Counted from the first letter of the stretch, positions 9,076 through 62,458 are shown. The stretch is DNA of 62,878 bases from Firmicutes bacterium ZCTH02-B6 (GCA_002159155.1 LZRQ01000119.1:1-62878); one strand, 5' to 3'. The notes: generated by a model not told the origin, from the sequence alone. Translations and numbers: made by a program.

Positions 9076-9132
9076 CGCGTTTCCTCCTCAAAAGTAGCCT
9101 GTGGCGTCCGGGACGGTGGAGGGCCGCGCTGT

Positions 9133-10833
9133 CTAGCCGGCATGCTGCCGCTGTTGGTCCGCTTGCTTCTTGAGTTCCTCCTCCAGCAGCACGCGGCGCA
9201 GCACCTTGCCCACCAGGGACTTGGGCAGTTCGTCCCGGAATTCTACCAGCTTGGGGACCTTGTAGGCGGCCAGATGATGACGGCAATGGGCGATGATCTC
9301 GTCCGCCGTCACGTGGGCGCCTTCCTTGAGCACGATGTACGCCTTGACGGTTTCGCCACGGTATGGGTCGGGCACGCCCACCACCGTGGCTTCCTTGACG
9401 GCTGGATGGGTGTAGATGACCTCCTCCACTTCTCGCGGGTAGATGTTGAATCCGCCGGCGATAATAAGATCCTTTTTACGGTCGATGATGTAGAAGTACC
9501 CGTCCTCGTCCATGCGGGCAATGTCACCCGTCCACAGCCACCCGTCGCGCAACGTCTGGGCGGTCTCCTCCGGCTTGTTCCAGTAGCCCTTCATGACCTG
9601 TGGGCCCCGGACAAGGAGCTCACCGGGCTCGCCCACCGGCACGTCCTCGCCGGTTTCCGGGTTGACGATGCGACAGTCGGTGTCCGGCCACGGCAGGCCG
9701 ATGCTGCCCACCTTGCGGTGGCCCCAGACGGGGTTCGCATGGGTGACGGGCGAAGCCTCGGTCAGGCCGTACCCCTCCACCAGGCGTCCGCCAGTCAACT
9801 CCTCAAAGGCGGTTTGCACCTCCACGGGCAGCGGCGCCGCACCGCTGACGCACGCCTGGATGGAGCTCATGTCGATCTCCCGCGCTCTTGGGTGGTTAAC
9901 CACCGCCACGTACATCGTCGGTGCCCCGGGGAAGATGTGCGGCCGGTGTCGCCGGATGACGCCGAGCACCTGGTTGATGTCAAACCGCGGGATGAGGATC
10001 ATCGTCCCGCCGCCGAAGACGGTGTAGTTGAGCACCGTGGTCAGACCGTAAACATGGAAGAAGGGCAACGCCGCCAGCACCCGGAAGTGGTCTTCCTTGA
10101 ACTCGCTGAGCCAGGCGCCGATCTGCACGCAGTTGGCGTAGAGGTTGAAGTGGGTGAGCATGGCGCCCTTGGGCGTCCCCGTGGTGCCGCCCGTGTACTG
10201 CAACGCCGCGAGATCTTCCCGGGCGTTGACAGGGACGGGTTCGGACAGCGGAGCCTGTCGCAGCAGCTCGGACCAACGGGTGACGTGAGGAGCGCTTGGG
10301 ACCCGCACCAACTGTCCCTGGCGGCGCAGCTGCAGCGGGAAGACGAGGCTGAGGGGGAACGGCAAGTACTCGGCCAGCCCTGTCACGACGACCCGCTCGA
10401 GGGCGGTGTCGCGCCGCACCTCGGCCACCTTGGGGTACATGATGTCCAGAACGATGATGTGGCGGGCACCGCTGTCGGACAGCTGGGTCTTGAGCTCGCG
10501 GGGGGTGTACAGAGGGTTGACCATCACGACCACCGCGCCCAGCCACAGTGCCGCGTAATAGGCGATGACGCACTGGGGCGAGTTGGGCAACATGATGGCC
10601 ACCCGGTCGCCCTTGCGCACGCCCATCTCCGCCAATGCTCCCGCAGCGCGCTGCACCTGGTCCAACAGCTCGCGGTAGGTGGTCCGCTTGCCGAAAAACA
10701 GCATCGCAGGCCGGTCGGGGTGAGCTGTTGCGGCGCGGATCAGGGGCTGTACTAAGGACTCCTCCGGGTAGGTCAAGGTGGCCGGTACTCCCGGCGGGTA
10801 GTGGCGGAGCCAAGGGCGCTGCTGCAGTGTCAT
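9133..10833 (-). CDS. lcfA: Long-chain fatty acid-CoA ligase
   Basis: 566 aa with AMP-binding motifs LQYTGGTTGTPKGAMLTH and GWLWTGDIARMDEDGYFYIIDRKKDLII. Confidence 0.9.
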   Translation of the reverse strand: MTLQQRPWLRHYPPGVPATLTYPEESLVQPLIRAATAHPDRPAMLFFGKRTTYRELLDQVQRAAGALAEMGVRKGDRVAIMLPNSPQCVIAYYAALWLGAVVVMVNPLYTPRELKTQLSDSGARHIIVLDIMYPKVAEVRRDTALERVVVTGLAEYLPFPLSLVFPLQLRRQGQLVRVPSAPHVTRWSELLRQAPLSEPVPVNAREDLAALQYTGGTTGTPKGAMLTHFNLYANCVQIGAWLSEFKEDHFRVLAALPFFHVYGLTTVLNYTVFGGGTMILIPRFDINQVLGVIRRHRPHIFPGAPTMYVAVVNHPRAREIDMSSIQACVSGAAPLPVEVQTAFEELTGGRLVEGYGLTEASPVTHANPVWGHRKVGSIGLPWPDTDCRIVNPETGEDVPVGEPGELLVRGPQVMKGYWNKPEETAQTLRDGWLWTGDIARMDEDGYFYIIDRKKDLIIAGGFNIYPREVEEVIYTHPAVKEATVVGVPDPYRGETVKAYIVLKEGAHVTADEIIAHCRHHLAAYKVPKLVEFRDELPKSLVGKVLRRVLLEEELKKQADQQRQHAG

Positions 10834-10889
10834 TGGGCCATCACCTCAGCACACAGGGCTCGGGCGGTGCCCGGCGCACATCGCCCTCG

Positions 10890-12767
10890 TCAACGTGCGG
10901 CCACGGTCGCAGACGGCTCTGCCGTTCCGGCCTGTCCGTTGGGCGCCGGGGACTCGTCGTACAGCTGCGCCACGATGTCGGCAAACTTTTCCATGATCGC
11001 CTTGCGCTTGACCTTCAGCGTCGGTGTGACCTCGCCGTCTTCCTGATACAGCCGCTTGGGCAGGATGGCAAACTTCTTGATCCGCTCGGGACTGGAGAGG
11101 GTGCGGTTGACCGCTTCCACTTCTTTTTGGATAAGCTCGTAAACGGCCGGGTTTTGCGACAGGTCCGTGTAGGTCGTGTAGGGGATCTTGTTATCTTGGG
11201 CCCACTTGCTCACGTTTTCCTCGTCGATGACGATGAGCGCCGTGATGTAGCGCCGGCCGTCGCCGATGACGACGGCGTCGTTGATGTACGGGCTGAACTT
11301 GAGCTTGTTTTCGATGTACTGAGGCGCGATGTTCTTCCCGCCTGCGGTGATGAACAGGTCCTTCTTCCGGTCGGTGATGCGGAGGAAGCCTTCTTCGTCC
11401 AGCTCGCCCACGTCGCCCGAGTGGAGCCAGCCGTCCACCAAGGCGCTGCGGGTCGACTCCTCGTCCTTGAAGTAGCCCGGGAACACGTTGGGACCCTTGA
11501 CCAGGATCTCGCCGTCCTCCGCGATGCGCACTTCGACGCCGGGCAAGGGGCGGCCGACGGTGCCGAGCTTGATGCGGTCGTAGTGGTGGATGGTGGTCGG
11601 ACCGGAGCCTTCCGTTTGCCCGTACACTTCCCGGATGGGTACCCCGAGGCTATGGAAGTAGAGCAGCACGTCGGGGCTGATGGGCGCCGCACCCGACAAG
11701 ACGAAGCGCGCTCTATCCAGGCCGAGCCGACGGGTGAGGGGGTGGAGCACGGTGACCCGGGCCAGCCAGTACAAGACGCTGAGGCCAAAGGATACCCGCC
11801 CTTCCAACAGCCGGGCGCGCGCGTGGCGCTGTCCGATGGCGATGGCTAGCCGGTACGCTCCCCGTTTAAACCAGTCCGCGTCCTTGATGCGCAGCTCGAC
11901 GCTGGAGTGGAGTTTCTCCCAGATGCGAGGTACGGCAAATATGAGCGTCGGCGAGATTTCCTGCATGTTCTCCAGCACCGTGTCGGTGTTCTCGCAGAAG
12001 TTAACGGTAAACCCCCAGTAGATGGGAAGGTACACCGACACCATACGCTGGGCGATGTGGGAAAGGGGTAGAAATGAAAGGGTTTCGTCGGCTTCGCTGA
12101 TCGGGTTGGCTTTGCCCAAGGAATCCGCGGTCCACAACAGGTTGCGGTGGGTCAACATGGCGCCCTTGGGCGGGCCGGTGGTGCCGGACGTGTAAATCAG
12201 CAACGCGACGTCGTCCGGTCTCCCCATTCGCAGCCGCTCGTCCAGGGCCCCGGGGTGCTGGGCGGCGTAGGCCTCGCCCAGGCGCTCCAGCTCCTCGAGG
12301 GTCATCACCCGCTCGTCCTTGAAGTCACGCAGGCCCTCGTCATCGATGAGGACGACCTTTTCAAGCCGGGGCAACTGGTCCCGGATTTCAAGGTACTTGT
12401 CAAGTTGTTCCTCGTTTTCCACAAACCAGAAGCGCGCCTCGGAGTGGGAGAGGATGTAGGCACACTGTTCGGGGCTGTTGGTGGCGTAGATGGCAGCCGT
12501 CATGCCCCCCGCGGCCTGGATGGCCAGGTCTGCGAAGAGCCACTCCGGACGGTTTTCGCCGATGAGACCGACCCGGTCCCCGTACTGCAGCCCTAGGCCC
12601 ATCAGACCGTTGGCGATGGCTCGCACGCGGCGCGCGTACTCACCCCATGTGATGGGCTGCCACAAGCCATAAACCTTGTGGCGCATAGCCACCCAGTCCC
12701 GTCGCCGTTGGGCTTCTTCAAAAAATAGGCGGGGCCCGGTGGTTTCCCAGCGCGGCGCAGGCTGCAC
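10890..12767 (-). CDS. AMP-dependent long-chain acyl-CoA synthetase (625 aa, second paralogue)
   Basis: Motifs LIYTSGTTGPPKGAMLTH and GWLHSGDVGELDEEGFLRITDRKKDLFITAGGKNIAPQ. First gene of the minus-strand fad unit. Confidence 0.9.
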   Translation of the reverse strand: MQPAPRWETTGPRLFFEEAQRRRDWVAMRHKVYGLWQPITWGEYARRVRAIANGLMGLGLQYGDRVGLIGENRPEWLFADLAIQAAGGMTAAIYATNSPEQCAYILSHSEARFWFVENEEQLDKYLEIRDQLPRLEKVVLIDDEGLRDFKDERVMTLEELERLGEAYAAQHPGALDERLRMGRPDDVALLIYTSGTTGPPKGAMLTHRNLLWTADSLGKANPISEADETLSFLPLSHIAQRMVSVYLPIYWGFTVNFCENTDTVLENMQEISPTLIFAVPRIWEKLHSSVELRIKDADWFKRGAYRLAIAIGQRHARARLLEGRVSFGLSVLYWLARVTVLHPLTRRLGLDRARFVLSGAAPISPDVLLYFHSLGVPIREVYGQTEGSGPTTIHHYDRIKLGTVGRPLPGVEVRIAEDGEILVKGPNVFPGYFKDEESTRSALVDGWLHSGDVGELDEEGFLRITDRKKDLFITAGGKNIAPQYIENKLKFSPYINDAVVIGDGRRYITALIVIDEENVSKWAQDNKIPYTTYTDLSQNPAVYELIQKEVEAVNRTLSSPERIKKFAILPKRLYQEDGEVTPTLKVKRKAIMEKFADIVAQLYDESPAPNGQAGTAEPSATVAAR

Positions 12768-18793: not shown

Positions 18794-19890
18794 CCCGACC
18801 GGTGCTGGCTTCGACTGAGCCGCCGGGCGAGGGGGTGTCGCAGGAGCCGCGCCTGCCTGGCCACATCGCGCGTTTGGAGCTGCCGACGCCGTATCCAGTG
18901 GGGCCGGTCAACGCGTACGTCGTCTTTGGCCGGTGCCTAACCCTTATCGACACAGGGCCCAACACTGATGAAGGAGAGGCCGCACTGCTGGACGGATTGC
19001 AGGCTTTGGGCGTCGCCCCTGAGAAGGTCCAGCAGGTGGTCATTACGCATCCCCACGTCGATCACCACGGGGGGCTCGACCGCTTCCTCCGGCACAACCC
19101 GCGGGCGCGCGTCCTGGCACACATGGGGGCCGCACCGTTTTTCGGCGGCAGCCCGGAACCCCGTCTCGGTTTCTACCGGCAATGGCTCAGAGAAGCCGGC
19201 CTGCCGGCGCCCCTCATCCCGGCTGTCCTCGAGGGCCTGCGCCGCCTGGGGGAGCTGGAGCCGAAGGCGAAACCGCAGCGGTGGCTGCAGGACGGGGACC
19301 TCATTGTCATGGGTGATGGCACGTGGCGGGTGCTGCATACGCCGGGGCATTCCGGTTCGCAGATCTGTCTCTACCACGAGTCGAGCCGCGTCATGTTCAC
19401 CGCCGATCACATCCTGCCGCAGGTGTCGTCCAACGCGATTGTCGAGCCGGCGCCGGGGCCCGGGGCGGGCCGGCCCCGCACCCTAGTGCAGTACCTGGAC
19501 GCCTTGCGGCGAGTGGCCGCTCTGCCTATAGAATTGGCGCTACCCGGCCACGGGCCGCCGTTCGCCGACGTCCAGGCGCTGGTACACGAGCGGCTCGCGA
19601 TGCACGCCCAACGGCTCGAGCAGTTGCTGGGGAGGCTGGCAACGGGTCCGGCCACCGTCTTTGAGCTGGCGCGGGTCCTGTTTCCCCACGCGGACCACGG
19701 CCAGCAGTTAGTGCTCGCGCTGTCGGAGGTGCAGGGACACCTGGATGTCCTGGAGGCCGCGGAGCAGGTGCGGCCGGACTCGGACGCTCTAGCTGGCACG
19801 GGCGCGGGCGATCCGGCTGCAGGGGCACTCGTCTACCGCGCTGTCGACGCGGCGAGGCGGGCGCATGGGATGAGCGGCGGAGGCGGATGA
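18790..19890 (+). CDS. MBL-fold metallo-hydrolase with a C-terminal helical extension
   Basis: 366 aa with the HxHxDH motif VITHPHVDHHGG and a later HTPGHS. Its start overlaps the acdA stop (GTTGA), implying translational coupling. Confidence 0.8.
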   Translation: MTRPVLASTEPPGEGVSQEPRLPGHIARLELPTPYPVGPVNAYVVFGRCLTLIDTGPNTDEGEAALLDGLQALGVAPEKVQQVVITHPHVDHHGGLDRFLRHNPRARVLAHMGAAPFFGGSPEPRLGFYRQWLREAGLPAPLIPAVLEGLRRLGELEPKAKPQRWLQDGDLIVMGDGTWRVLHTPGHSGSQICLYHESSRVMFTADHILPQVSSNAIVEPAPGPGAGRPRTLVQYLDALRRVAALPIELALPGHGPPFADVQALVHERLAMHAQRLEQLLGRLATGPATVFELARVLFPHADHGQQLVLALSEVQGHLDVLEAAEQVRPDSDALAGTGAGDPAAGALVYRAVDAARRAHGMSGGGG

Positions 19891-19929
19891 CGGGGATGAA
19901 GATGGCGGAATAAGTGAAGGAGTTCACTA

Positions 19930-19958
19930 TTGACTTCTTCCGGCACCGCTTCTATAAT
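19930..19958 (+). promoter_or_regulatory. Near-consensus sigma-A promoter of the met operon
   Basis: TTGACT (19930-19935), 17-nt spacer, TATAAT (19953-19958), about 60 nt upstream of the riboswitch P1. Confidence 0.7.
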
Positions 19959-20019
19959 TGCCCTAGCGTTACAACTCAAAACCAACGCATCGACTCCCTG
20001 TCGGTGCGCGACAGTGCAA

Positions 20020-20147
20020 CTCTTATCGAGAGCGGCGGAGGGACTGGCCCGATGAAGCCCGGCAACCGGCGTCCGCTTTAGGGCGGGCGCAAGGTGCCAA
20101 TTCCTGCCGAATGCCGGGGAGAGGCCCGGCGTTTGGGGAGATGAGAG
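20020..20147 (+). promoter_or_regulatory. SAM-I (S-box) riboswitch aptamer
   Basis: CTCTTATCGAGAGCGGCGGAGGGACTGGCCCGATGAAGCCCGGCAACC ... AAGGTGCCAATTCCTGCC ... GGAGATGAGAG matches the conserved S-box core. The P1 arms are CTCTTATC and GATGAGAG. It is upstream of metNIQ, the classic regulon. Confidence 0.9.
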
Positions 20148-20170
20148 GAGGCACATCTGCGACAGATGTA

Positions 20171-20198
20171 CCTCTTCTCGTGCGGGAAGGGGTTTTTT
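20171..20198 (+). terminator. Intrinsic terminator (expression platform of the SAM riboswitch)
   Basis: Stem CCTCTTC / GAAGGGG with an 8-nt loop, followed by TTTTTT. The 5' arm can alternatively pair with the 3' P1 strand region (GAGATGAGAGG). Confidence 0.75.
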
Positions 20199-20256
20199 GT
20201 TGCATATCCACAACGGTTTCCTCAATGGCAAAGCAAGCGGCACCGCAACCGTTCCC

Positions 20257-21003
20257 ATGCTCCGTCTTGAAAACGTGCAGAAGACGTACGGACGGGGCGC
20301 CAATCAGGTGCAGGCGCTGCGCGGTGTGTCCATCGACGTGATGCCGGGAGAGATTTTCGGCATCATCGGGTTGAGCGGAGCGGGCAAGAGTACCCTCATC
20401 CGCTGCATCAACTTGCTGGAAAGGCCGCAAGCCGGCCGGGTGTACATCGACGGTGTCGATGTCACCGATTACAAGGGCGCGGTACTGCGCAGCATGCGCA
20501 GGCAGATCGGGATGGTGTTCCAGCACTTCAACCTGCTGACCAACCGGACTGCCCTGGGTAACGTTACGTTTCCGATGGAGATCGCCGGGCTGTCCCGGCG
20601 CGAGCGGGACCAGCGGGCGTTGGAATTGCTTGAATTTGTCGGATTACGCGCCAAAGCTCACCGCTATCCGTCTGAGCTCAGCGGCGGCGAGAAGCAGCGG
20701 GTGGGCATCGCCCGGGCGCTAGCGTCCGAGCCCCGGCTGTTGCTGTGCGACGAGCCCACGTCGGCGCTGGACCCGGAAACGACCGCGTCGTTCCTCAACC
20801 TCCTTAAGGATATCAACCGGCGCCTGGGCCTGACCATCGTGATGGTCACCCACCAGATGCACGTGGTGCGCGCCGTCTGCGGCCGCGTCGCCGTGTTGGA
20901 CCAGGGGCGGGTCGCCGAGTTAGGTACCGTCGCGGAAGTGTTTGCAGCGCCCAAGACCGAGGCGGCGCGGCGGCTTGTAAAGGAGGCGGCCATCGGTGCT
21001 TAA
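20257..21003 (+). CDS. metN: Methionine ABC transporter ATP-binding protein, short form without the C-terminal NIL/C2 domain
   Basis: MLRLENVQKTY..., Walker A GLSGAGKST, signature LSGGEKQRVGIARAL, Walker B LLLCDEPTSALD. Ends ~248 aa after ATG 20257 and overlaps the metI start. Confidence 0.88.
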   Translation: MLRLENVQKTYGRGANQVQALRGVSIDVMPGEIFGIIGLSGAGKSTLIRCINLLERPQAGRVYIDGVDVTDYKGAVLRSMRRQIGMVFQHFNLLTNRTALGNVTFPMEIAGLSRRERDQRALELLEFVGLRAKAHRYPSELSGGEKQRVGIARALASEPRLLLCDEPTSALDPETTASFLNLLKDINRRLGLTIVMVTHQMHVVRAVCGRVAVLDQGRVAELGTVAEVFAAPKTEAARRLVKEAAIGA

Positions 21004-21664
21004 CCAGCAGGTGCTCAACATGCTGTGGCCAGCCCTCTGGGAAACGCTCTACATGGTGGCGGGAGCCGTCTTTTTTGGTCACCTGTTTGGGGTGCCCCTG
21101 GGAATCCTCGTGGTCGTCACCAGCCCGGGGCACATCTTGCCCAATCGCCTGGTGCACCGCGTGCTTGGGATCATTATCAACGTCGGGCGCTCGATCCCGT
21201 TCATCATTTTGATGGTGGCCATCATCCCCTTCACCCGGTGGGTGGTGGGCACCTCCATCGGCACGACGGCGGCCATTGTGCCGCTCTCCGTGGCCGCAAC
21301 GCCGTACATCGCGCGGCTTGTGGAGACGGCCCTTCTCGAGGTTGACTTGGGCGTCATCGAGGCCGCTCAGAGCATGGGCGCGACTCCGTGGCAGGTCATC
21401 TACAAAGTGCTCTTGCCGGAGAGCTTGTCGTCCCTGGTACTGGGGGTGACCATCACGACCATTAGCCTCGTCGGCTATTCCGCCATGGCGGGTGCCATCG
21501 GCGCCGGGGGCCTCGGCGACCTGGCGATCCGATACGGCTACCAGCGATTCCGGGGCGATGTCATGCTCTACACCGTCGTCGTCCTGGTGGTGTTGGTGCA
21601 GCTGATTCAAATGGCGGGGAACTTCATCGCCCGGCGGGTGGATCATCGCCATCCGTCGCAGTAA
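20996..21664 (+). CDS. metI: Methionine ABC transporter permease
   Basis: 222-aa five-helix permease with a MetI-like N-terminus (LWPALWETLYMV). Operon context. Confidence 0.88.
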   Translation: MLNQQVLNMLWPALWETLYMVAGAVFFGHLFGVPLGILVVVTSPGHILPNRLVHRVLGIIINVGRSIPFIILMVAIIPFTRWVVGTSIGTTAAIVPLSVAATPYIARLVETALLEVDLGVIEAAQSMGATPWQVIYKVLLPESLSSLVLGVTITTISLVGYSAMAGAIGAGGLGDLAIRYGYQRFRGDVMLYTVVVLVVLVQLIQMAGNFIARRVDHRHPSQ

Positions 21665-21791
21665 GGCGGCAGAGCGGCAATTCAACTCGCCGTCACCGGG
21701 GCACACGCCCCGTACGGGGCGCCGTGAGGGCGTGGCCACGGGTCGGTGAGGAGACAATCTAAAGAGAGCTAATACTGGGAGGGTTAGAAAT

Positions 21792-22589
21792 ATGAAGCTG
21801 TCGTTGCTCCGTTCCGCAACAGTCGCGGCACTGGTCCTGGCGTTGGCTGCCGCCGCGGGCGCGCAAGGGACCTGGGTGATCACCGTCGGCGCCACCCCGG
21901 TGCCCCACGCGGAGATCCTGGAGTTCATCAAGCCCGCACTGCAGGCGGAAGGCATTGAGTTGCGGGTCGTAGAGTTCACCGACTACGTCCTGCCCAACTT
22001 GGCTTTGGCGGACGGTGAACTGGATGCTAACTACTTCCAGCACATCCCGTATCTAGAAACCTTCGCGGCCGATCACCGGCTCAACCTGTCGGTGCTGGTG
22101 GGCGTGCACATCGAGCCCATGGGATTGTACAGCCGGCGGCACACGAGCCTCGACCAGCTGCCGCAGGGCGCGACGATCGCCATCCCTAACGACGCCACCA
22201 ACGGGGGGCGGGCGCTGCTCTTGCTCCAGCAGGCGGGCTTGATTCGGCTGGCGGACGGCGTCGGCATTACGGGCACCGTGTTTGACATCGTAGACAATCC
22301 CAAGAACCTGCGTTTCCGCGAGCTCGAGGCGCCGTTGCTGCCCCGGGCCCTGGAGGACGTGGACGCTGCCGTCATCAACACCAACTACGCCCTCGAGGCG
22401 GGCCTGGTCCCGTTGCGGGACGCGCTGGTGATCGAGGGGGCGGAGTCGCCCTACGTCAACGTGGTGGCGGTGCGCACCGGCGACGAGACGAATCCGGCCC
22501 TGCGCAAGCTCGCGGAAGCTCTGCTTAAGCCCGAAGTGCGGGAGTTCATCCTGGAAACCTACGACGGCGCGGTCGTCCCGGTCTTCTAA
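21792..22589 (+). CDS. metQ: MetQ/NlpA-family methionine-binding protein (copy 1)
   Basis: 265 aa with a signal peptide and NlpA-family pattern (VGATPVPHAEILEFIKP, IAIPNDATNGGRAL, PYVNVVAVR). Confidence 0.88.
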   Translation: MKLSLLRSATVAALVLALAAAAGAQGTWVITVGATPVPHAEILEFIKPALQAEGIELRVVEFTDYVLPNLALADGELDANYFQHIPYLETFAADHRLNLSVLVGVHIEPMGLYSRRHTSLDQLPQGATIAIPNDATNGGRALLLLQQAGLIRLADGVGITGTVFDIVDNPKNLRFRELEAPLLPRALEDVDAAVINTNYALEAGLVPLRDALVIEGAESPYVNVVAVRTGDETNPALRKLAEALLKPEVREFILETYDGAVVPVF

Positions 22590-22622
22590 GGGGTGTCGCG
22601 GTCAGCGAAAGGAGAGAGGCCC

Positions 22623-23414
22623 ATGCGGCGCTTGCTAGCGCTTGTAACACTGGTGGCGGTGGTGGCCGTAGCCGGCGGATTGGCTGCCGCCCAGCCCACT
22701 GTGCTGCGGGTTGGCGCGAGCACCTTGCCCCACGCTCCGATTCTGGAGTTCATCAAGCCGATGCTGGCCGAGGAAGGCATCGAGCTGCAAATTATCGAGT
22801 TCAGCGACTATGTGCTGCCGAACTTGGCGTTGGCAGAAGGTGACGTGGACGCCAACTTCTTCCAGCACATCCCGTACCTGGAAGACTTTGCCACCAATCA
22901 CCGGCTTGACCTGACGTGGACGGTGAAGGTGTTCTTAGCCCCCATTGGTATGTACAGCTACAAGATTACCTCTATTGACCAGCTGCAGCGGGGCGCGACC
23001 ATCGCCATTCCTAACGATGTGACCAACGGTGGCCGCGCGCTGGCCCTCTTGGCCCAGGCCGGGTTGCTGGAGTTGCGCGAAGGGGTCGAAGGCAACGCGA
23101 CGGTGTTTGACATCGTCCGCAATCCCTTGAATCTGCGCATTATTGAACTGGAAGCGCCGCTCTTGCCCCGGGCATTGGATGATGTGGACGCGGCGTTCAT
23201 CAACCAGACGTACGCGCTGGAGGCGGGCTTCAGGCCGGCGCGAGACGCCATCCTGCTTGAGTCCGGCGAATCGCCTTACGCGAACGTCGTGGCGGTCCGG
23301 CGGCAGGACGCCGACAACCCGGCCATCCAGAAGCTGGGCGAAGTGCTGACCCGACCCGAGGTGCGGGACTTCATCCTGGAGTACTTTGAGGGCTCCTTGA
23401 TCCCGGTGTTTTGA
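22623..23414 (+). CDS. metQ: MetQ/NlpA-family methionine-binding protein (copy 2, tandem paralogue)
   Basis: ATG 22623 is preceded by AAAGGAGAGAGG. Roughly two-thirds identical by eye to copy 1 across the mature region. Confidence 0.88.
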   Translation: MRRLLALVTLVAVVAVAGGLAAAQPTVLRVGASTLPHAPILEFIKPMLAEEGIELQIIEFSDYVLPNLALAEGDVDANFFQHIPYLEDFATNHRLDLTWTVKVFLAPIGMYSYKITSIDQLQRGATIAIPNDVTNGGRALALLAQAGLLELREGVEGNATVFDIVRNPLNLRIIELEAPLLPRALDDVDAAFINQTYALEAGFRPARDAILLESGESPYANVVAVRRQDADNPAIQKLGEVLTRPEVRDFILEYFEGSLIPVF

Positions 23415-23470
23415 GTAGCATCCTGATGCTCGTGGCCGGACAAGGAGGCGTTTGGCCGGCGGAGAACAGG

Positions 23471-23517
23471 AAAAAGCGGGTGAGGGCGCGGGGGATCGCG
23501 CACCGAACCCGCTTTTT
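23471..23517. terminator. Terminator after metQ2 (A-tract / compound hairpin / T-tract)
   Basis: AAAAAGCGGGT ... ACCCGCTTTTT with an inner GCGCG/CGCGC stem. Confidence 0.65.
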
Positions 23518-23573
23518 CTGTAGGTACGACGCCTTGGGCCGGCTGGCCCGATGACGACACGGAGGTGGGAGGC

Positions 23574-24347
23574 ATGTCGTTGGTGGACGTCCAGCGGGAC
23601 GGCGCGGTGGCGGTCGTTACCCTCAACAAGCCGCCGGTCAACGCCCTGGACGGGGCTTTCCTGCGGGAGATAGACAACGCTGTGGCAGGGCTAGAGCACG
23701 ACGGCGCCGTCCGCGCCGTCGTGTTCCGGAGCGCCATCCCAGGCATTTTCATCGCCGGCGCCGATATCAAGGCGTTTCAAGATCCGGACGCGACCCGGGC
23801 GTCCATGGGCCGTTTTCACGAGTGCTTTAACCGCATCGAGCGACTGCCCAAGCCGACGATCGCGGCCATCAGCGGTCACGCCCTCGGCGGCGGGTGTGAG
23901 TTTACCCTAGTCTGTGACTTCCGGCTGATGATCGACGACGGGAAGAGCACCATCGGACTGCCCGAGGTGAGCCTGGGGATCTTCCCCGGCGCCGGTGGCA
24001 CCCAACGGTTGCCCAGGATTGTCGGCCGGGCGCGCGCGCTGGACATTATCCTCCACGGGCGTCGGCTTACAGCGCAGGAGGCAGCTGCGGCCGGTCTCGT
24101 GCACGCGGCGTGGCCGGCGGAAGGTTTTGAGGAGCGGGTATTGGAGTATGCCCGGCGCCTGGCACAAGGAGCCACCAAGGCGCTGGCGGCGGCCAAGGCC
24201 AACGTGCTCCGGGCGGAGAGTACTCCCTTGGACGTCGGGCTAAAGCTCGAGGTCAGCGACTTCCTCGAGGTTCTCCGTACCGCTGACGCCCAGGAGGGCG
24301 TGCGGGCGTTTCTCGAAAAGCGGGCGCCTACGTTCCGCGGGCAGTAG
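23574..24347 (+). CDS. Enoyl-CoA hydratase/isomerase (crotonase family)
   Basis: About 257 aa: VVTLNKPPVNAL, FIAGADIKAF, GHALGGGCEFTLVCD. ATG 23574 follows GGAGGTGGGAGG. Confidence 0.9.
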   Translation: MSLVDVQRDGAVAVVTLNKPPVNALDGAFLREIDNAVAGLEHDGAVRAVVFRSAIPGIFIAGADIKAFQDPDATRASMGRFHECFNRIERLPKPTIAAISGHALGGGCEFTLVCDFRLMIDDGKSTIGLPEVSLGIFPGAGGTQRLPRIVGRARALDIILHGRRLTAQEAAAAGLVHAAWPAEGFEERVLEYARRLAQGATKALAAAKANVLRAESTPLDVGLKLEVSDFLEVLRTADAQEGVRAFLEKRAPTFRGQ

Positions 24348-31842: not shown

Positions 31843-33498
31843 TTAGGCCGCGTCGCCCTCCCTGTGCTCGCCAAACACTTCCCGCAGCACGCCGCAGATT
31901 TCTCCAACGGAGGCGTACGCTTCCACAGCCCGGATCAAGTAGGGCATGAGATTGTCATCGCCCTGTGCCGCCTCCCGCACCGCGGCCAGCGCCGCTTGGA
32001 CGGCCCGTTGGTCCCGCTCCCGCCGCACGCGCTGGAGCCGCTCGATCTGGGCCCGCTCCTGAGCCTCATCGACCTGCAGCAGTTCCGGCTCATGGTGCTC
32101 TTCCATCCGGTACCGGTTGACGCCGACCACGACCCGCTGGCCCGATTCCACCTGCTGCTGCCAGCGGTAGGAGCTCTCCTCAATTTCCCGTTGCATGAAG
32201 CGGGTTTCGATCGCGCGCACCGCGCCGCCGATGTCGTCGATACGCCGGATGTAATCTTTGGCCCGTTCGTAGATGGCCTCGGTCAGGTGCTCGACCAAGT
32301 AGGACCCGCCCAGGGGATCGATGACGTCGGTCACTCCTGTCTCATGGGCGAGAATCTGCTGGGTGCGGACGGCGATGCGGCTCGCGGTCTCGCTTGGCAA
32401 AGCCAGCGCCTCATCGAAGGCGTTGGTGTGCAACGATTGCGTCCCGCCCAACACCGCCGCGAGCGCCTGGTAGGCGACGCGAACGATGTTGATCTCGGGC
32501 TGCTGGGCCGTCAGGGTGCAGCCGGCCGTCTGTGTGTGAAACCGGAGGGCCCACGCGCGCGGGTCCGTCGCGCCGAAGCGCTCCCGCATAATCTCCGCCC
32601 ACAGCCGGCGGGCGGCGCGGAATTTGGCCACCTCTTCGAAGAGGTGCATGTGGGCGTTGAAGAAGAACGACAGGCGCGGGGCAAACCGGTTTACGTCGAG
32701 CCCGCGCTTCATGGCTTCGGAGACGTATGCGATCGCGTTGGCAAGGGTAAAGGCGACCTCCTGGACGGCGTCGGCGCCTGCCTCGCGTATGTGGTAGCCG
32801 CTGATGCTGATGACGTTCCACTTGGGCACGTGCTCCTGGCAGTAGGCAAACAGATCCACGACCAGTCGCAAGGAAGGCCGGGGCGGGAAGATGTAGGTGC
32901 CGCGGGCCAGGTACTCTTTCAAAATGTCGTTCTGCACCGTGCCCGCAAGCTGCGCCGGGTCGAGCCCCTGGCGCTTGGCGACAGCGATGTACATGGCCAA
33001 CAAAATGGCCGCCGGGGCGTTGATGGTCATGGACGTGCTGACTTGGTCCAAGGGGATCCCTTGAAAAAGCGCCTCCATGTCGGCCAGCGTGTCGACCGCG
33101 ACGCCGACACGTCCGACTTCGCCGCTGGCCAGCGGGTGATCGGAGTCGTAGCCTAACTGCGTGGGCAGGTCGAAGGCTACCGACAACCCTGTCGTCCCCT
33201 GTGAGAGCAGGTAATGGAAACGCCGGTTCGTTTCCGCAGCGGTGCCGTAGCCCGCGTACTGGCGCATCGTCCAGGGCCGGCCGCGGTACATGGTCGGATA
33301 AGGCCCGCGGGTAAACGGGTACTCGCCCGGCCAGCCCAGGGCCCGTTCCCAATCGAGGCTGGCCAGATGGGCAGGGGTGTAGAGGGGCTCAAGCGGGATG
33401 CCGGAGCTGGTCTCCCTTGTGGCCAGCTCTTGGGCGGCACCGGCTCGCCAACGTTCCAGCGCGCGGTTGATCCGCTCGAGGGCGCTCGATTCCCACAC
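31843..33498 (-). CDS. Methylmalonyl-CoA mutase catalytic (N-terminal, TIM-barrel) subunit, with no B12-binding domain
   Basis: 551 aa with [42 protein letters not shown] and [12 protein letters not shown]. Ends before the cobalamin-binding domain. Confidence 0.9.
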
Positions 33499-33678
33499 TG
33501 CCTAGCTCACCCCTCCGGGCTCCAGCGCGCGGTGCGCGGACGCCTTCTCCGTTCCTCGATTGTACTATACACAAAATTGATTTCTCTTGCCGCCGCGAAC
33601 ATCCTTGCAGGCGCGGGCCGCCGCCGTACCTGCCGCCGGGTGAGGCTACCGCGTTGGGGCGCCGACTCCGGCAGGTCA

Positions 33679-33707
33679 TCGACGCGGGCACGAGAAATGG
33701 ATAAAAT
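33679..33707 (+). promoter_or_regulatory. Weak promoter candidate for the Rdx/SelW-like gene
   Basis: TCGACG, 17-nt spacer, TAAAAT (33702-33707), 44 nt upstream of ATG 33751. Confidence 0.3.
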
Positions 33708-33750
33708 GACCACAAAGGCAGGAAACCCATTGGGCAAAGGAGGCGTTGCC

Positions 33751-34005
33751 ATGACGGCCAAGCCCGAGATCCGCATCGAGTTTTGCACTTCTTGAGGGTA
33801 CGCCCCGAAAGCCGCCAGGTTGGCGGAAGAGCTGGCGTCAACGTTTGCCGGCCGGCTGGGGGCCATCGTACTGGTACCTTCCAGCGGCGGCGTCTTTGAG
33901 GTGACCGCGGGGGAGCGGGTGCTGTTCTCCAAGCGGGCTGCCGGGCGTTTCCCGCAGCCAGGGGAGGTCACGCGCGCGATCCAGGAAAGCGGAATGCTCT
34001 CCTGA
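33751..34005 (+). CDS. Rdx-family (SelW/SelT/SelH-like) selenoprotein candidate. In-frame TGA at 33793-33795 read as selenocysteine (CxxU).
   Basis: ATG 33751 follows AAAGGAGG. MTAKPEIRIEFCTS-TGA-GYAPKAARLAEELASTFAGRLGAIVLVPSSGGVFEVTAGERVLFSKRAAGRFPQPGEVTRAIQESGMLS. Both ORF-track fragments are in the same frame. The sequence pattern is typical of bacterial SelW-like proteins. Confidence 0.75.
33800..33838 (+). promoter_or_regulatory. Candidate bacterial SECIS stem-loop
   Basis: Lower stem ACGCC/GGCGT, upper stem CCGCC(A)/(T)GGCGG, apical loop containing GGU. Begins 5 nt after the UGA. Confidence 0.45.
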
Positions 34006-34035
34006 ACCCGCGGGGCGACAACGGGAGGGAGCGTT

Positions 34036-34815
34036 TTGGTAACCATCGACCTTTCCGGCCACACCGGCCTCGTGGTCGGTGTGGCCGACAAACACAGCAT
34101 CGCATGGGGGATCGCGCAGATCTTGTCCGAGGCCGGCATGCGCCTGGCCCTTACGTACCAGAACGAGCGATTGGAGAGGAACGTACGGGAGCTGGCCTCA
34201 ACGCTGCCTGACCCGCTGGTGCTGCCGTTGGATGTGACCGACGACCGGCAGATCGACGCCGTCTTTGAGGCGATCGGCAACCAGTTTGGGCGGCTCGACT
34301 GCCTGATCCATGCCGTGGCGTTCGCACCCCGGGAAGACTTGATGAAAGACTACGTGGAAACGTCCAGGGACGGTTACCGGATTGCTCTGGACGTGAGCGC
34401 GTATTCGCTGGCGGCCTTGGCGCGCGGGGCGCGCCCGCTTATGAAAGAATCCGGCGGCGGCAGTATCGTGACGCTGACGTACTACGGCTCGGAGAAGGTC
34501 GTCGCCGGGTACAACGTCATGGGCGTGGCCAAGGCGGCCTTGGAGGCGTCGGTACGATACTTGGCCAACGACCTCGGGCCCGACAACATCAGGGTCAACG
34601 CGATTTCCGCCGGGCCCATGAAGACGCTGGCCGCCCGCGGGATTCCGGGCTTCATGAACATGCTCAAGTACCACGAGGAAAAGGCCCCGCTGCGCCGCCG
34701 GGTGGACATGCGGGAGCTGGCCGGCACGGCCCTCTTTTTGTGCAGCCCGCTCGGGTCAGGGATCACCGGTGAAGTCATCCATGTGGACTGCGGGTACAAC
34801 ATCCTAGGGCTTTAG
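34036..34815 (+). CDS. fabI: Enoyl-[acyl-carrier-protein] reductase (NADH), FabI
   Basis: 259-aa SDR with FabI patterns GVADKHSIAWGIA and YNVMGVAKAALEASVRYLA. TTG start lies 5 nt after GGGAGGGAG. Confidence 0.9.
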   Translation: MVTIDLSGHTGLVVGVADKHSIAWGIAQILSEAGMRLALTYQNERLERNVRELASTLPDPLVLPLDVTDDRQIDAVFEAIGNQFGRLDCLIHAVAFAPREDLMKDYVETSRDGYRIALDVSAYSLAALARGARPLMKESGGGSIVTLTYYGSEKVVAGYNVMGVAKAALEASVRYLANDLGPDNIRVNAISAGPMKTLAARGIPGFMNMLKYHEEKAPLRRRVDMRELAGTALFLCSPLGSGITGEVIHVDCGYNILGL

Positions 34816-61400: not shown

Positions 61401-61424
61401 AAAGCACTAAACATATAGCAGCAC

Positions 61425-61592
61425 GGGAGCGCTGAATCCTGCCGCCACCGGACTCAGGCGGTGGGAGCGGGGGACCCAGTCGGCGGTCCGCAGCGGCGGA
61501 CCAGGGGTGAATCCCGGCAATGCCGGGTAGGGTCAACTTCCGATCCGAACCCGCAAGCTAACCTCGCAAGCGTGGCGAAGGCGTGCGCTCAC
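61425..61592 (+). promoter_or_regulatory. ydaO/yuaA-type cyclic-di-AMP riboswitch
   Basis: Pseudo-twofold conserved blocks: GAGCGCTGAATCC-hairpin-GGGAGCGGGGGACCCA, and GGGGTGAATCCC-hairpin-GGGTAGGG ... CCGAACCCGCAAGCTAACCTCGCAAGCGT. Closing helix GAGCGC (61427-32) / GCGCTC (61585-90). Confidence 0.85.
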
Positions 61593-61675: not shown

Positions 61676-62458
61676 ATGTCTCGGGACCGCGCTCCTGTCA
61701 TCGGCATCACGCCTGCGTTCGACGACGGGACAGAGATCGATTCCGTGCGCCCACACTCAGCCGTCCATTTCCTGGACGCCGCCTACGGCCGCGCGGTGGA
61801 GCGGGCCGGGGCGGCGCCCGTGATCCTGCCCGTGACTGACTCGCCTGCTTCCATGGAACGCTACCTTGACATGATCGATGGCTTGCTCTTGTCCGGTGGC
61901 GGGGGTTACATCCGCCGCCGGCACAGGGAACGCCGCGTCTTGCCGGATCTTAAGACGCTGTCCCCGCGTCGGTACCGCTTTGAAGCGGCACTGCTGCGTA
62001 TGGCCTTAGAGCGAGACTTGCCCGTTCTCGGCATCTGCCGCGGCCACCAGATGATTGCCCGAGTCGGCGGCGGGCGCGTGTATGCTCAGATCTCGGCGCG
62101 GGTCCCTGGGGCAGGCGAGCACCATGTGGGCGGGCTGCCCGCGTCCCGCCGCTGTGTGCACGACATCTACGTTGAACCCGGGACGCTGCTGCATAGCATT
62201 CTCGGCATAACGGCCGTAGGTGTCAACAGCCTCCACCGGCAGGCCGTGGCCAGCGTCAAGCCGCCCTTCGTCATCAGCGCCCGGGCCGGCGATGGTGTGG
62301 TGGAGGCGCTGGAGAGCCGGGCCCATCGATTCGTGGTCGGGGTCCAGTTTCATCCTGAGTTGCTGCTGGACTCCGTGCCGGTGTGGCAGCGCCTGTTTGA
62401 CGCCTTTGTCGCCGCCTGCCGCGCGACCGACGGGCGGCGCCCCCGCATTGTCGCCTAA
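61676..62458 (+). CDS. Peptidase C26 / class-I glutamine amidotransferase-like gamma-glutamyl hydrolase (PuuD-like)
   Basis: From ATG 61676: MSRDRAPVIGITPAFDDG ..., nucleophile elbow LPVLGICRGHQM and His region VGVQFHPE. Confidence 0.85.
   Translation: MSRDRAPVIGITPAFDDGTEIDSVRPHSAVHFLDAAYGRAVERAGAAPVILPVTDSPASMERYLDMIDGLLLSGGGGYIRRRHRERRVLPDLKTLSPRRYRFEAALLRMALERDLPVLGICRGHQMIARVGGGRVYAQISARVPGAGEHHVGGLPASRRCVHDIYVEPGTLLHSILGITAVGVNSLHRQAVASVKPPFVISARAGDGVVEALESRAHRFVVGVQFHPELLLDSVPVWQRLFDAFVAACRATDGRRPRIVA

What the first reader, a model, noticed from the sequence alone, without database searches (positions are those of the whole stretch)
33751..34005. Hidden selenoprotein: an Rdx/SelW-like gene with in-frame UGA (CxxU) that ORF callers split or miss
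Seen in the sequence: the tail of ORF 33214..33795 (MTAKPEIRIEFCTS, ATG 33751 preceded by AAAGGAGG) and ORF 33820..34005 are in the same reading frame. They are interrupted only by TGA at 33793-33795. Read-through gives an 84-codon product with C-T-S-U followed by LAEELASTF...LVPSSGGVFEV...GRFPQPGE. Established knowledge: this is the hallmark layout of the thioredoxin-like Rdx family (SelW/SelT/SelH). That family has a CxxC/CxxU redox motif right after the first beta-strand and has known bacterial Sec-containing members. A stem-loop with a GGU-containing apical loop (33800-33838) lies just 3' of the UGA, where a bacterial SECIS is expected. Inference: this is a genuine recoding event, the host carries the selABCD machinery, and standard annotation will either omit the gene or call only the C-terminal 61 aa.
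Basis: partly seen in the sequence, partly recalled or inferred. Interest (0 to 1): 0.7.

Follow-up and report, generated by a model that had tools for sequence, protein, structure and literature searches.

The report
Missed SelW-like selenoprotein gene
A small redox-protein gene (SelW/Rdx family) whose in-frame UGA almost certainly encodes selenocysteine was skipped by automatic gene calling; the call is correct, but the family is long known, so the gene is a routine new member.

Summary
ATG 33751 (Shine-Dalgarno AAAGGAGG) opens an 84-codon frame that ends at 34005 and is interrupted only by TGA 33793-33795, giving C-T-S-U.

With Cys at the TGA, the product matches Pfam Rdx end to end (80 bits; the 61-aa C-terminal ORF alone scores 49). 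It also matches TIGR02174 "CXXU_selWTH". The TGA aligns with the second Cys of the CxxC motif in solved Rdx structures.

Of 80 homologous loci from many phyla, 60 have TGA and 20 have TGC/TGT at that codon. The Sec-type genes share a 6-bp hairpin with a G-first triloop 22 nt after the UGA (window 33812-33826). It is 92.6% paired, five of six pairs show compensatory changes, and it meets the published bacterial SECIS criteria. Cys-type genes lack it.

TGA is the commonest ordinary stop on this contig, so the recoding is specific to this site. The deposited annotation of the source contig (a Limnochordales-like metagenome contig) has no gene here, and relatives are called as 57-61-aa stubs.

No selA/B/D or tRNA-Sec lies in the ~80 kb I could reach, so the host machinery remains inferred.

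Bacterial SelW-like CxxU selenoproteins have been known since 2004-2005. This is a new member of a known kind.

The parts
33679..33707 (+). Promoter-like site (TCGACG, 17-nt spacer, TAAAAT), about 44 nt upstream of the start codon
   Evidence: one site found against 0.1 expected in shuffles. This is a consensus match only. A weak, inferred part.
33736..33743 (+). Shine-Dalgarno sequence AAAGGAGG, 7 nt before the ATG
   Evidence: An equivalent purine-rich SD followed by ATG or GTG is present in every orthologue.
33751..34005 (+). Full SelW-like/Rdx selenoprotein coding sequence: 84 codons including Sec15, then stop TGA at 34003-34005
   Evidence: translation. PF10262 at 80.3 bits, profile positions 1-73 of 74. 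TIGR02174 at 59.8 bits against a cutoff of 34.2; six solved bacterial Rdx structures, best E-value 1e-15.
33784..33795 (+). Redox motif C12-T-S-U15 (TGC ACT TCT TGA)
   Evidence: aligned with CTQC of 2fa8; the CxxU/CxxC column is conserved in 80 loci.
33793..33795 (+). In-frame UGA read as selenocysteine (Sec15)
   Evidence: the same codon is TGA in 60 of 80 homologous loci and TGC/TGT in 20. TGA is otherwise the main stop codon here (26 of 50 genes, with no internal stops).
33812..33826 (+). Bacterial SECIS core: 6-bp stem CCGCCA/UGGCGG with apical loop GGU (33818-33820), 22 nt after the UGA
   Evidence: -8.6 kcal/mol for the hairpin alone and -17.8 in context; 92.6% of cells paired against 54.6% or less in slid controls, 5 of 6 pairs with compensatory changes, and 27 double-change cells against 5.4 expected (0 of 500 shuffles). 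RNAalifold predicts the same helix. It meets the bSECIS criteria quoted in PMC13188914.

Best explanation
Window 33751-34005 (+) is one gene for an 84-residue SelW-like (Rdx family, thioredoxin-like) selenoprotein of a Limnochordales-like Bacillota bacterium.

Translation starts at ATG 33751. UGA 33793-33795 is decoded as selenocysteine because the mRNA hairpin 33812-33826 (6-bp stem, GGU triloop, 22 nt downstream) acts as a bacterial SECIS. That element would recruit SelB carrying GTP and Sec-tRNA(Sec) to the ribosome paused at the UGA (inferred from the standard bacterial mechanism). Translation then continues to the ordinary TGA stop at 34003-34005, which has no such hairpin.

The product carries a C12-x-x-U15 motif at the junction between the first beta-strand and the first helix. 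It most likely cycles between a selenol/thiol form and a selenenylsulfide form as a small thiol-dependent oxidoreductase (inferred from the family). Its physiological substrate is unknown, as it is for the whole family.

Shown here: the gene structure, family membership, the Sec/Cys column, the conserved covarying hairpin, and the fact that annotation missed the gene. Inferred: SelB dependence, actual selenium insertion, and the redox chemistry.
For: Frame, start codon, SD and TGA.

Family membership: the full-length product with Cys at the TGA scores 80.3 bits on PF10262 over profile positions 1-73 of 74, against 48.8 bits for the 61-aa ORF alone. TIGR02174 CXXU_selWTH scores 59.8 bits against a cutoff of 34.2. 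In the PDB, 2fa8, 2oka, 3dex, 2obk, 2ojl and 2p0g match at E-values from 1e-15 to 3e-7 and mouse SelW (2npb) at 1e-4. The TGA aligns with the second Cys of CTQC.

Conservation of the TGA: all orthologues from independent samples keep the same in-frame TGA, an SD plus start codon, and K-P-E-I-R-I-E-F/Y-C-T-S upstream. Substitutions in the 11 upstream codons include many synonymous third-position changes. Across 80 genome loci from many phyla, 60 have TGA and 20 have TGC/TGT at that codon.

Hairpin: the Sec-type genes average 5.56 of 6 pairs (56 of 62 have 5 or more). The Cys-type genes average 2.62 of 6, and none reaches 5. Covariation: 92.6% of cells paired, 5 of 6 pairs with compensatory changes, 0 of 500 shuffles reaching the observed score, and slid controls at 54.6% or less. 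RNAalifold finds the same helix. The first loop base is G in at least 90% of sequences, while the codon holding it encodes S, R or G.

SECIS criteria from PMC13188914: loop of 3-9 nt, stem of 4-16 bp, G among the first two loop bases, spacing of 16-37 nt, and MFE of -7.5 kcal/mol or lower. All are met.

Site-specific recoding: TGA ends 26 of 50 called genes on the contig, and none has an internal stop.
Against: No selA, selB, selD or tRNA-Sec was found in the window or in the ~80 kb of the source contig that could be read. The rest of the genome is not available, so Sec-decoding capacity is not shown for this organism.

No other selenoprotein gene was detected in the window.

The hairpin's folding energy in the single sequence is not distinguishable from shuffles (z = -0.74), and no Rfam family matches it.

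The Sec-type versus Cys-type comparison is not corrected for phylogeny.

There is no experimental evidence of selenium insertion. The 2026 review lists the bacterial family only as "predicted with high confidence" (PMC13188914).
Confidence: 0.93

Rival explanations
1. The real gene is only the 61-aa ORF starting at TTG 33820, as gene callers report for relatives. The upstream 14 codons ending in TGA would be an unrelated short ORF or non-coding sequence.
For: Gene callers output exactly this 57-61-aa product for five to six relatives. On its own it still passes the Pfam Rdx threshold (48.8 bits).
Against: The truncated product lacks beta-strand 1 and the CxxU/CxxC motif that defines the family. 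The upstream 14 codons add 31 bits of profile score. They are conserved at the protein level with synonymous changes. The SD and start codon sit before 33751, not before 33820. TTG 33820 lies inside the conserved hairpin.
Confidence: 0.02
2. The TGA is a nonsense mutation or an assembly or sequencing error in what should be a CxxC gene, making this a pseudogene or an artefact.
For: Cys-type homologues with TGC/TGT at this codon exist (20 of 80 loci), and TGA is one substitution away from them.
Against: The identical TGA is present in independent assemblies from JGI, ENA, Logan and GenBank MAGs, across 41-90% protein identity and many phyla. It always comes with an intact frame on both sides and a covarying hairpin that Cys-type genes lack.
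Confidence: 0.01
3. The UGA is read through, but not as selenocysteine. For example, near-cognate Trp or Cys could be inserted with help from the hairpin. Or the lineage has lost the Sec machinery and the gene is a decaying relic.
For: Sec machinery could not be found in the accessible ~80 kb, so Sec decoding is not shown for this genome.
Against: The hairpin meets every criterion of the SelB-dependent bSECIS model, including the G-first small loop (PMC13188914). The codon occupies a redox-active Cys position, the classical Sec/Cys pair. At least five Limnochordales or Bacillota species-level genomes keep the TGA, the hairpin and the intact frame (L020-L024), which argues against a relic. The same family is an accepted selenoprotein in Sec-decoding Bacillota relatives such as Symbiobacterium thermophilum (PMC1794560).
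Confidence: 0.04

Closest known systems
Bacterial SelW-like (SELENOW-like) CxxU selenoproteins: Pfam PF10262 Rdx and NCBIfam TIGR02174 CXXU_selWTH. Described in prokaryotic selenoproteome surveys (PMC1088965, PMC1794560; listed in PMC13188914).
   Same: Same size (about 80-100 aa). Same CxxU motif directly after the first beta-strand. The in-frame UGA pairs with Cys in homologues. A small bacterial SECIS hairpin with a G in the apical loop lies just downstream of the UGA inside the coding region. The profile match is full length and above the curated cutoffs.
   Different: Nothing essential differs. This copy comes from a Limnochordales-like lineage, a group that none of the papers read here mention. 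It sits in a lineage-specific arrangement: divergent from a methylmalonyl-CoA mutase gene and 30 nt upstream of fabI and mutY. It falls just below the NF041051 (Campylobacter-type) equivalog cutoff, at 86.5 bits against 88.
Solved Cys-containing bacterial Rdx proteins, such as Atu0228 of Agrobacterium (PDB 2fa8), 2oka, 3dex, 2obk, 2ojl and 2p0g
   Same: Alignable over residues 3-78 at E-values from 1e-15 to 3e-7. They share the C-T-x-C/U motif and the conserved L-x-P-S-x-G-G-x-F-E core.
   Different: Those proteins have Cys (CxxC) where this one has UGA/Sec. They are about 20 residues longer at the C-terminus. Cys-type genes lack the hairpin.
Mammalian selenoprotein W (PDB 2npb) and its relatives SelT, SelH and MIEN1
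   Same: Same fold family and the same CxxU position (E = 1e-4 for 2npb).
   Different: Eukaryotic SelW uses a 3'-UTR SECIS of a different type, with SBP2 and eEFSec. Here the SECIS lies inside the coding region, as in bacteria. Sequence similarity is only distant.
E. coli fdhF-type bacterial SECIS (the SelB-binding hairpin)
   Same: A stem-loop immediately 3' of the UGA inside the ORF, with a small apical loop carrying G followed by G or U. Spacing is within the 16-37 nt range of the consensus model (PMC13188914).
   Different: The sequences are not similar, and no Rfam SECIS model matches. The supported element is only a 6-bp stem with a 3-nt loop (or 5 bp with a 5-nt loop). No conserved lower stem or bulge was found. 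SelB binding was not tested.

Membership tests
Rdx / SelW-SelT-SelH family (Pfam PF10262; NCBIfam TIGR02174) | Profile match above the curated cutoff over the whole domain | tested here: met
   PF10262 at 80.3 bits (cutoff 22.6), profile positions 1-73 of 74. TIGR02174 at 59.8 bits (cutoff 34.2).
Rdx / SelW-SelT-SelH family (Pfam PF10262; NCBIfam TIGR02174) | CxxC or CxxU redox motif immediately after the N-terminal beta-strand | tested here: met
   I-E-F-C-T-S-U-G-Y; aligned with Y-C-T-Q-C-N-W of 2fa8; the column is conserved in 80 loci.
Rdx / SelW-SelT-SelH family (Pfam PF10262; NCBIfam TIGR02174) | Thioredoxin-like alpha/beta fold | not tested
   No structure was predicted. The fold is supported only indirectly, by sequence matches to six solved bacterial Rdx structures over residues 3-78.
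NF041051 SelTWH_Campy equivalog | Score at or above the equivalog cutoff (88 bits) | tested here: not met
   86.5 bits, below 88. This is a close relative but is not filed under this equivalog.
Bacterial selenoprotein gene (Sec-UGA with in-ORF SECIS) | In-frame UGA with homology on both sides, aligned with Cys in homologues (a Sec/Cys pair) | tested here: met
   (homology and coding-type substitutions upstream); 60 loci with TGA and 20 with TGC/TGT at the same codon.
Bacterial selenoprotein gene (Sec-UGA with in-ORF SECIS) | Hairpin meeting the bSECIS consensus quoted in PMC13188914: loop of 3-9 nt, upper stem of 4-16 bp, G among the first two loop bases, 16-37 nt from the UGA, and MFE of -7.5 kcal/mol or lower | tested here: met
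   3-nt GGU loop, 6-bp stem, 22-nt spacing, -8.6 kcal/mol for the hairpin alone and -17.8 in context.
Bacterial selenoprotein gene (Sec-UGA with in-ORF SECIS) | Hairpin conserved with compensatory changes in Sec-type genes and absent from Cys-type genes | tested here: met
   92.6% of cells paired, 5 of 6 pairs compensatory, 0 of 500 shuffles.; 5.56 against 2.62 pairs of 6. The outer stem failed this test.
Bacterial selenoprotein gene (Sec-UGA with in-ORF SECIS) | The genome encodes selA, selB, selD and tRNA-Sec (selC) | not testable with these tools
   None was found in the window or in contig range 16476-96978.
Bacterial selenoprotein gene (Sec-UGA with in-ORF SECIS) | Selenium is actually incorporated at the UGA | not testable with these tools
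   This needs 75Se labelling or mass spectrometry.
Rfam-curated SECIS families | Covariance-model match | tested here: not met
   no match at E-values up to 10 in 33700-34050. This hairpin type is not represented by any Rfam model.

The most novel reading that the evidence does not exclude
The most novel reading still open concerns the SECIS rather than the protein. SelW-like Sec genes from at least seven phyla (Bacillota, Chloroflexota, Verrucomicrobiota, Gemmatimonadota, Actinomycetota, Armatimonadota and Thermodesulfobacteriota relatives) share one positionally fixed, minimal SECIS: a 6-bp stem with a G-first triloop exactly 22 nt after the UGA. The sequence is constrained at the RNA level (the loop G is kept while the codon encodes S, R or G), and no Rfam model covers it. 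If so, it is a single ancient SECIS class that has co-evolved with the protein, and it could be turned into a covariance model to recover thousands of missed genes. A second, weaker possibility is that the Limnochordales copy is functionally coupled to the co-directional fabI-mutY genes 30 nt downstream.
Probability: 0.35. Interest if true: 0.3.

Novelty: new member of a known kind. Interest (0 to 1): 0.15.

Why it matters
In practice this is an annotation fix. The gene is absent from the deposited gene calls of its own contig. In the 5.8-billion-protein collection, its clade appears only as 57-61-aa stubs that lack the active site. Protein catalogues therefore under-report this selenoprotein, and with it selenium dependence in Limnochordales-like Bacillota.

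The gene also indicates that this uncultured lineage uses selenocysteine, which is useful when designing cultivation media.

Scientifically it adds no new principle. The family, its CxxU motif, its Sec/Cys interchange and its in-ORF SECIS have been known since the first prokaryotic selenoproteome surveys. The cellular function of bacterial SelW-like proteins is still unknown, and this locus gives no new handle on that question.

Tried and rejected
- **Rfam scan.** A scan of 33700-34050 at E-values up to 10 gave no SECIS or other family.
- **Shuffle test on the single sequence.** The hairpin was not significant (z = -0.6 to -0.7), so the argument had to rest on comparative data.
- **Outer stem.** Stem 33800-04/33834-38 was tested and rejected: 33.4% paired, the same as slid controls.
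- **Sec machinery.** No tRNA lies in the window. No SelA, SelB or SelD Pfam hits appear among the gene calls covering contig positions 16476-96978. Window 19076-24035 has no Pfam-annotated gene calls in any look-up.
- **Other in-frame TGA genes.** A GC3-based scan of the window found only junctions between adjacent genes that share a frame.
- **Conserved neighbours.** An all-against-all blastp of ORFs within 4 kb in 81 loci found only lineage-specific synteny. The analysis is crude and is disturbed by GC-rich antisense ORFs.
- I did not pursue either further.
- **Literature.** A search for Limnochordia plus selenocysteine found nothing relevant.
- **Not run.** Structure prediction was skipped, because sequence matches to solved Rdx structures already settle the family.

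Full report
**1. The observation**

- ATG 33751 is preceded by AAAGGAGG (33736-33743) with a 7-nt spacer.
- The frame reads MTAKPEIRIEFCTS, then TGA (33793-33795), then GYAPKAARLAEELASTFAGRLGAIVLVPSSGGVFEVTAGERVLFSKRAAGRFPQPGEVTRAIQESGMLS. It stops at TGA 34003-34005.
- The mechanical ORFs 33214..33795 and 33820..34005 are in the same frame.
It has an outer stem 33800-04/33834-38, an inner stem CCGCCA/UGGCGG (33812-17/33821-26) and a GGU loop, at -17.8 kcal/mol.
- In this 65% GC DNA that energy is ordinary (z = -0.74 against dinucleotide shuffles), and no Rfam model matches. A single sequence therefore cannot decide whether the hairpin means anything.

**2. Family membership**

With Cys in place of the TGA, the 84-residue product matches Pfam Rdx (PF10262) over profile positions 1-73 of 74, at 80.3 bits. 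With X it scores 73.2 bits. The 61-aa ORF alone scores 48.8 bits and covers only positions 19-73. The 14 codons upstream of the TGA therefore carry real family signal.

NCBIfam gives TIGR02174 "CXXU_selWTH" at 59.8 bits (cutoff 34.2). NF041051 "SelT/SelW/SelH family (seleno)protein" scores 86.5 bits, just under its equivalog cutoff of 88.

Against the PDB, the best matches are all Rdx proteins: 2fa8, 2oka, 3dex, 2obk, 2ojl and 2p0g (E-values 1e-15 to 3e-7), then mouse selenoprotein W 2npb (1e-4) and MIEN1 2ljk (3e-3). The TGA aligns with the second Cys of the C-T-Q-C motif.

**3. Origin of the window, and what annotation did with the gene**

The neighbouring fabI gene places the window on ENA assembly ERZ795023, contig NODE_27 (121 kb). 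In the deposited gene calls, nothing is called between the methylmalonyl-CoA mutase gene and fabI.

In the 5.8-billion-protein collection, the closest relatives are five 61-aa proteins, one 57-aa protein and one 79-aa protein. These are stubs that start inside the gene. JGI names the 57-aa one "selenoprotein W-related protein".

**4. Related loci**

DNA around those stubs was fetched and read in frame. Every intact copy has the same in-frame TGA. Upstream of it lies K-P-E/D-I-R-I-E-F/Y-C-T-S/A, preceded by an SD and an ATG or GTG. L011, an indel-ridden contig, has the same TGA in its DNA, but its upstream frame is broken. These come from independent JGI, ENA and Logan samples at 53-90% identity, which excludes a sequencing error.

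The 11 upstream codons differ from the window by 1-3 synonymous changes in each comparison (CCC to CCT, GAG to GAA, TTT to TTC, ACT to ACC or ACG). Non-synonymous changes number 0 to 7 and rise with divergence. That is the pattern of translated sequence.

A scan of one genome per GTDB species returned 80 loci.
- The nearest are Limnochordales and Bacillota MAGs (L020-L024, 61-90% identity). L020-L024 have the window's fabI-mutY arrangement downstream, and the mutase gene also lies upstream in the metagenome relatives.
- The rest come from Chloroflexota, Verrucomicrobiota, Gemmatimonadota, Actinomycetota, Armatimonadota, Thermodesulfobacteriota, Gammaproteobacteria, Clostridia, Bacillaceae and others.
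- At the codon aligned with 33793-33795, 60 loci have TGA (59 counted automatically, plus L099 corrected by hand), 16 have TGC and 4 have TGT.

This Sec/Cys interchange at a redox Cys position is the standard bioinformatic criterion for a selenoprotein family.

**5. The SECIS**

A gapless alignment of 54 nt starting at the TGA was made from 63 Sec-type genes (A2).
- **Inner hairpin (columns 20-25 paired with 29-34).** It forms standard pairs in 92.6% of cells. Sliding the 3' arm by 1-3 columns gives 26-55%. Five of six pairs show changes on both sides (CG to UA, AU or GC, and so on). There are 27 double-change cells against 5.4 expected, and 0 of 500 shuffles reach the observed covariation score.
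- **Independent prediction.** RNAalifold predicts the same helix.
- **Sec-type versus Cys-type.** Among 62 distinct Sec-type sequences, the mean is 5.56 of 6 pairs and 56 have at least 5. Among 21 Cys-type genes the mean is 2.62 and none reaches 5. This comparison is not corrected for phylogeny.
- **Loop base.** The first loop base is G in at least 90% of sequences, although the codon holding it encodes Ser, Arg or Gly (26, 18 and 16 sequences). That points to an RNA-level constraint. Loops are GUU, GUC, GGU, GUG or GGG in 55 of 62.
- **Exceptions.** The few Sec-type sequences that do not pair in this register (L055, L056, L074, L066, L069) fold into hairpins in a shifted register. In four of the five (all but L055) G is the second loop base.
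- **Published criteria.** The window's element meets all four constraints of the bacterial SECIS model quoted in PMC13188914. Its loop is 3 nt (allowed 3-9) and its upper stem 6 bp (4-16). G is the first loop base, followed by G. It lies 22 nt from the UGA (16-37). Its MFE is -8.6 kcal/mol alone and -17.8 in context (limit -7.5 or lower).
- **Outer stem.** It is 33.4% paired, equal to the slid controls and below the shuffle mean. The supported SECIS core is therefore 33812-33826.

**6. The recoding is local**

Of 50 deposited gene calls on this contig, 26 end in TGA, 15 in TAG and 9 in TAA, and none has an internal stop. The gene itself ends in TGA. TGA is therefore the normal and preferred stop, and its reading as a sense codon at 33793 must depend on local context.

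**7. Sec machinery**

This is the one part of the interpretation I could not test.
- There is no tRNA gene in the window.
- Pfam-annotated gene calls covering contig positions 16476-96978 show no SelA, SelB or SelD. That range is the whole window plus about 9 kb on each side, except for window 19076-24035, which has no Pfam-annotated calls. The calls are beta-oxidation genes, ETF, an Mrp antiporter, propionyl-CoA carboxylase and methylmalonyl-CoA mutase, SUF Fe-S assembly genes, and ABC transporters.
- No second selenoprotein gene turned up in a scan for in-frame TGA with coding signal on both sides.
- About 80 kb is only a few percent of a genome, so this absence says little.
- Indirect support: at least five species-level genomes of the clade retain the TGA, the hairpin and the intact frame (L020-L024). 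The same family is listed as a selenoprotein in Sec-decoding Bacillota-related organisms such as Symbiobacterium thermophilum, Alkaliphilus metalliredigens and Desulfotomaculum reducens (PMC1794560).

**8. Mechanism**

*Shown:* one 84-codon gene with its own SD and start codon; a promoter-like site at 33679-33707 (weak evidence); no terminator before fabI 30 nt downstream; a UGA at the CxxU position; and a conserved covarying hairpin 22 nt downstream.

*Inferred from established knowledge of bacterial Sec insertion:* the hairpin binds SelB carrying GTP and Sec-tRNA(Sec), which delivers Sec at the UGA in competition with release factor 2.

*Inferred from the Rdx/SelW family:* the C12-x-x-U15 pair, at the start of helix 1 of a thioredoxin-like fold, cycles through a selenenylsulfide and acts as a small thiol oxidoreductase. 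The substrate is unknown.

I found no gene neighbour conserved across phyla that would suggest a partner. The fabI-mutY linkage is specific to this lineage.

**9. Comparison with what is known, and novelty**

Bacterial SelW-like CxxU selenoproteins are well established.
- They were the most abundant selenoprotein family in the Sargasso Sea data (48 genes), with a bacterial-type SECIS and few Cys homologues (PMC1088965).
- They appear in comparative surveys of bacterial genomes (PMC1794560).
- They are listed as [quoted passage not shown] in a 2026 review (PMC13188914).
- NCBI has curated models for naming them.

This gene passes every family test that could be run. It is a new member of a known kind, from a lineage (Limnochordales) that none of the papers I read mention.

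Interest is low. What the finding offers is a corrected annotation and a hint of selenium use in this uncultured group.

Noticed in passing
window 20020-20147 (+): A SAM (S-box) riboswitch at 80.2 bits, followed by co-directional ORFs at 20197-21003, 20996-21664 and 21792-22589. This stretch (window 19076-24035) is the only part of the window for which no Pfam-annotated gene calls were obtained.
   Followed up: no
window 61420-61586 (+): A c-di-AMP (ydaO/yuaA) riboswitch at 70.4 bits, directly upstream of a Peptidase_C26/GATase-domain gene (about window 61676-62458; L102 11340-12122). I recall this riboswitch mainly upstream of transporter and cell-wall hydrolase genes, so this downstream gene looks unusual; I did not check that.
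   Followed up: no
L011 (ENA ERZ25039579 contig_137577), 8400-11100: In this contig the orthologous Rdx, fabI and methylmalonyl-CoA mutase genes are all broken into fragments by frameshifts. This looks like indel errors in a long-read assembly rather than biology. The Rdx gene was called there as a 79-aa chimera.
   Followed up: partly
L055, L056, L074, L066, L069 (54 nt after the TGA): These Sec-type SelW-like genes do not pair in the common register. L055, L056 and L074 come from low-GC Clostridia and Tissierellia, L069 from an Acidimicrobiaceae MAG and L066 from an unclassified MAG. All fold into a hairpin shifted by a few bases. Four have AGUUA, AGUU or CGUGA loops with G as the second loop base. 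L055 has an 8-nt loop (UUGGAAUU) without it.
   Followed up: partly
Alignment A2, column 26 (window 33818): The first base of the SECIS loop is G in at least 90% of Sec-type genes, although the codon containing it encodes Ser, Arg or Gly in different lineages. The protein sequence appears to be bent to fit the RNA element.
   Followed up: partly
window 33214-33750 (+) and 33507-34280 (-): These long mechanical ORFs over and opposite the gene are artefacts of the GC-rich sequence: the 193-aa ORF whose tail holds the true N-terminus, and a 257-aa antisense ORF. Neither has a counterpart in the deposited gene calls.
   Followed up: yes
window 34003-34036 (+): The selenoprotein's stop codon (TGA 34003) and the fabI start (TTG 34036) are 30 nt apart and in the same frame, with no terminator between them. 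Co-transcription with fabI and mutY is likely. The arrangement is conserved only within Limnochordales-like genomes.
   Followed up: partly
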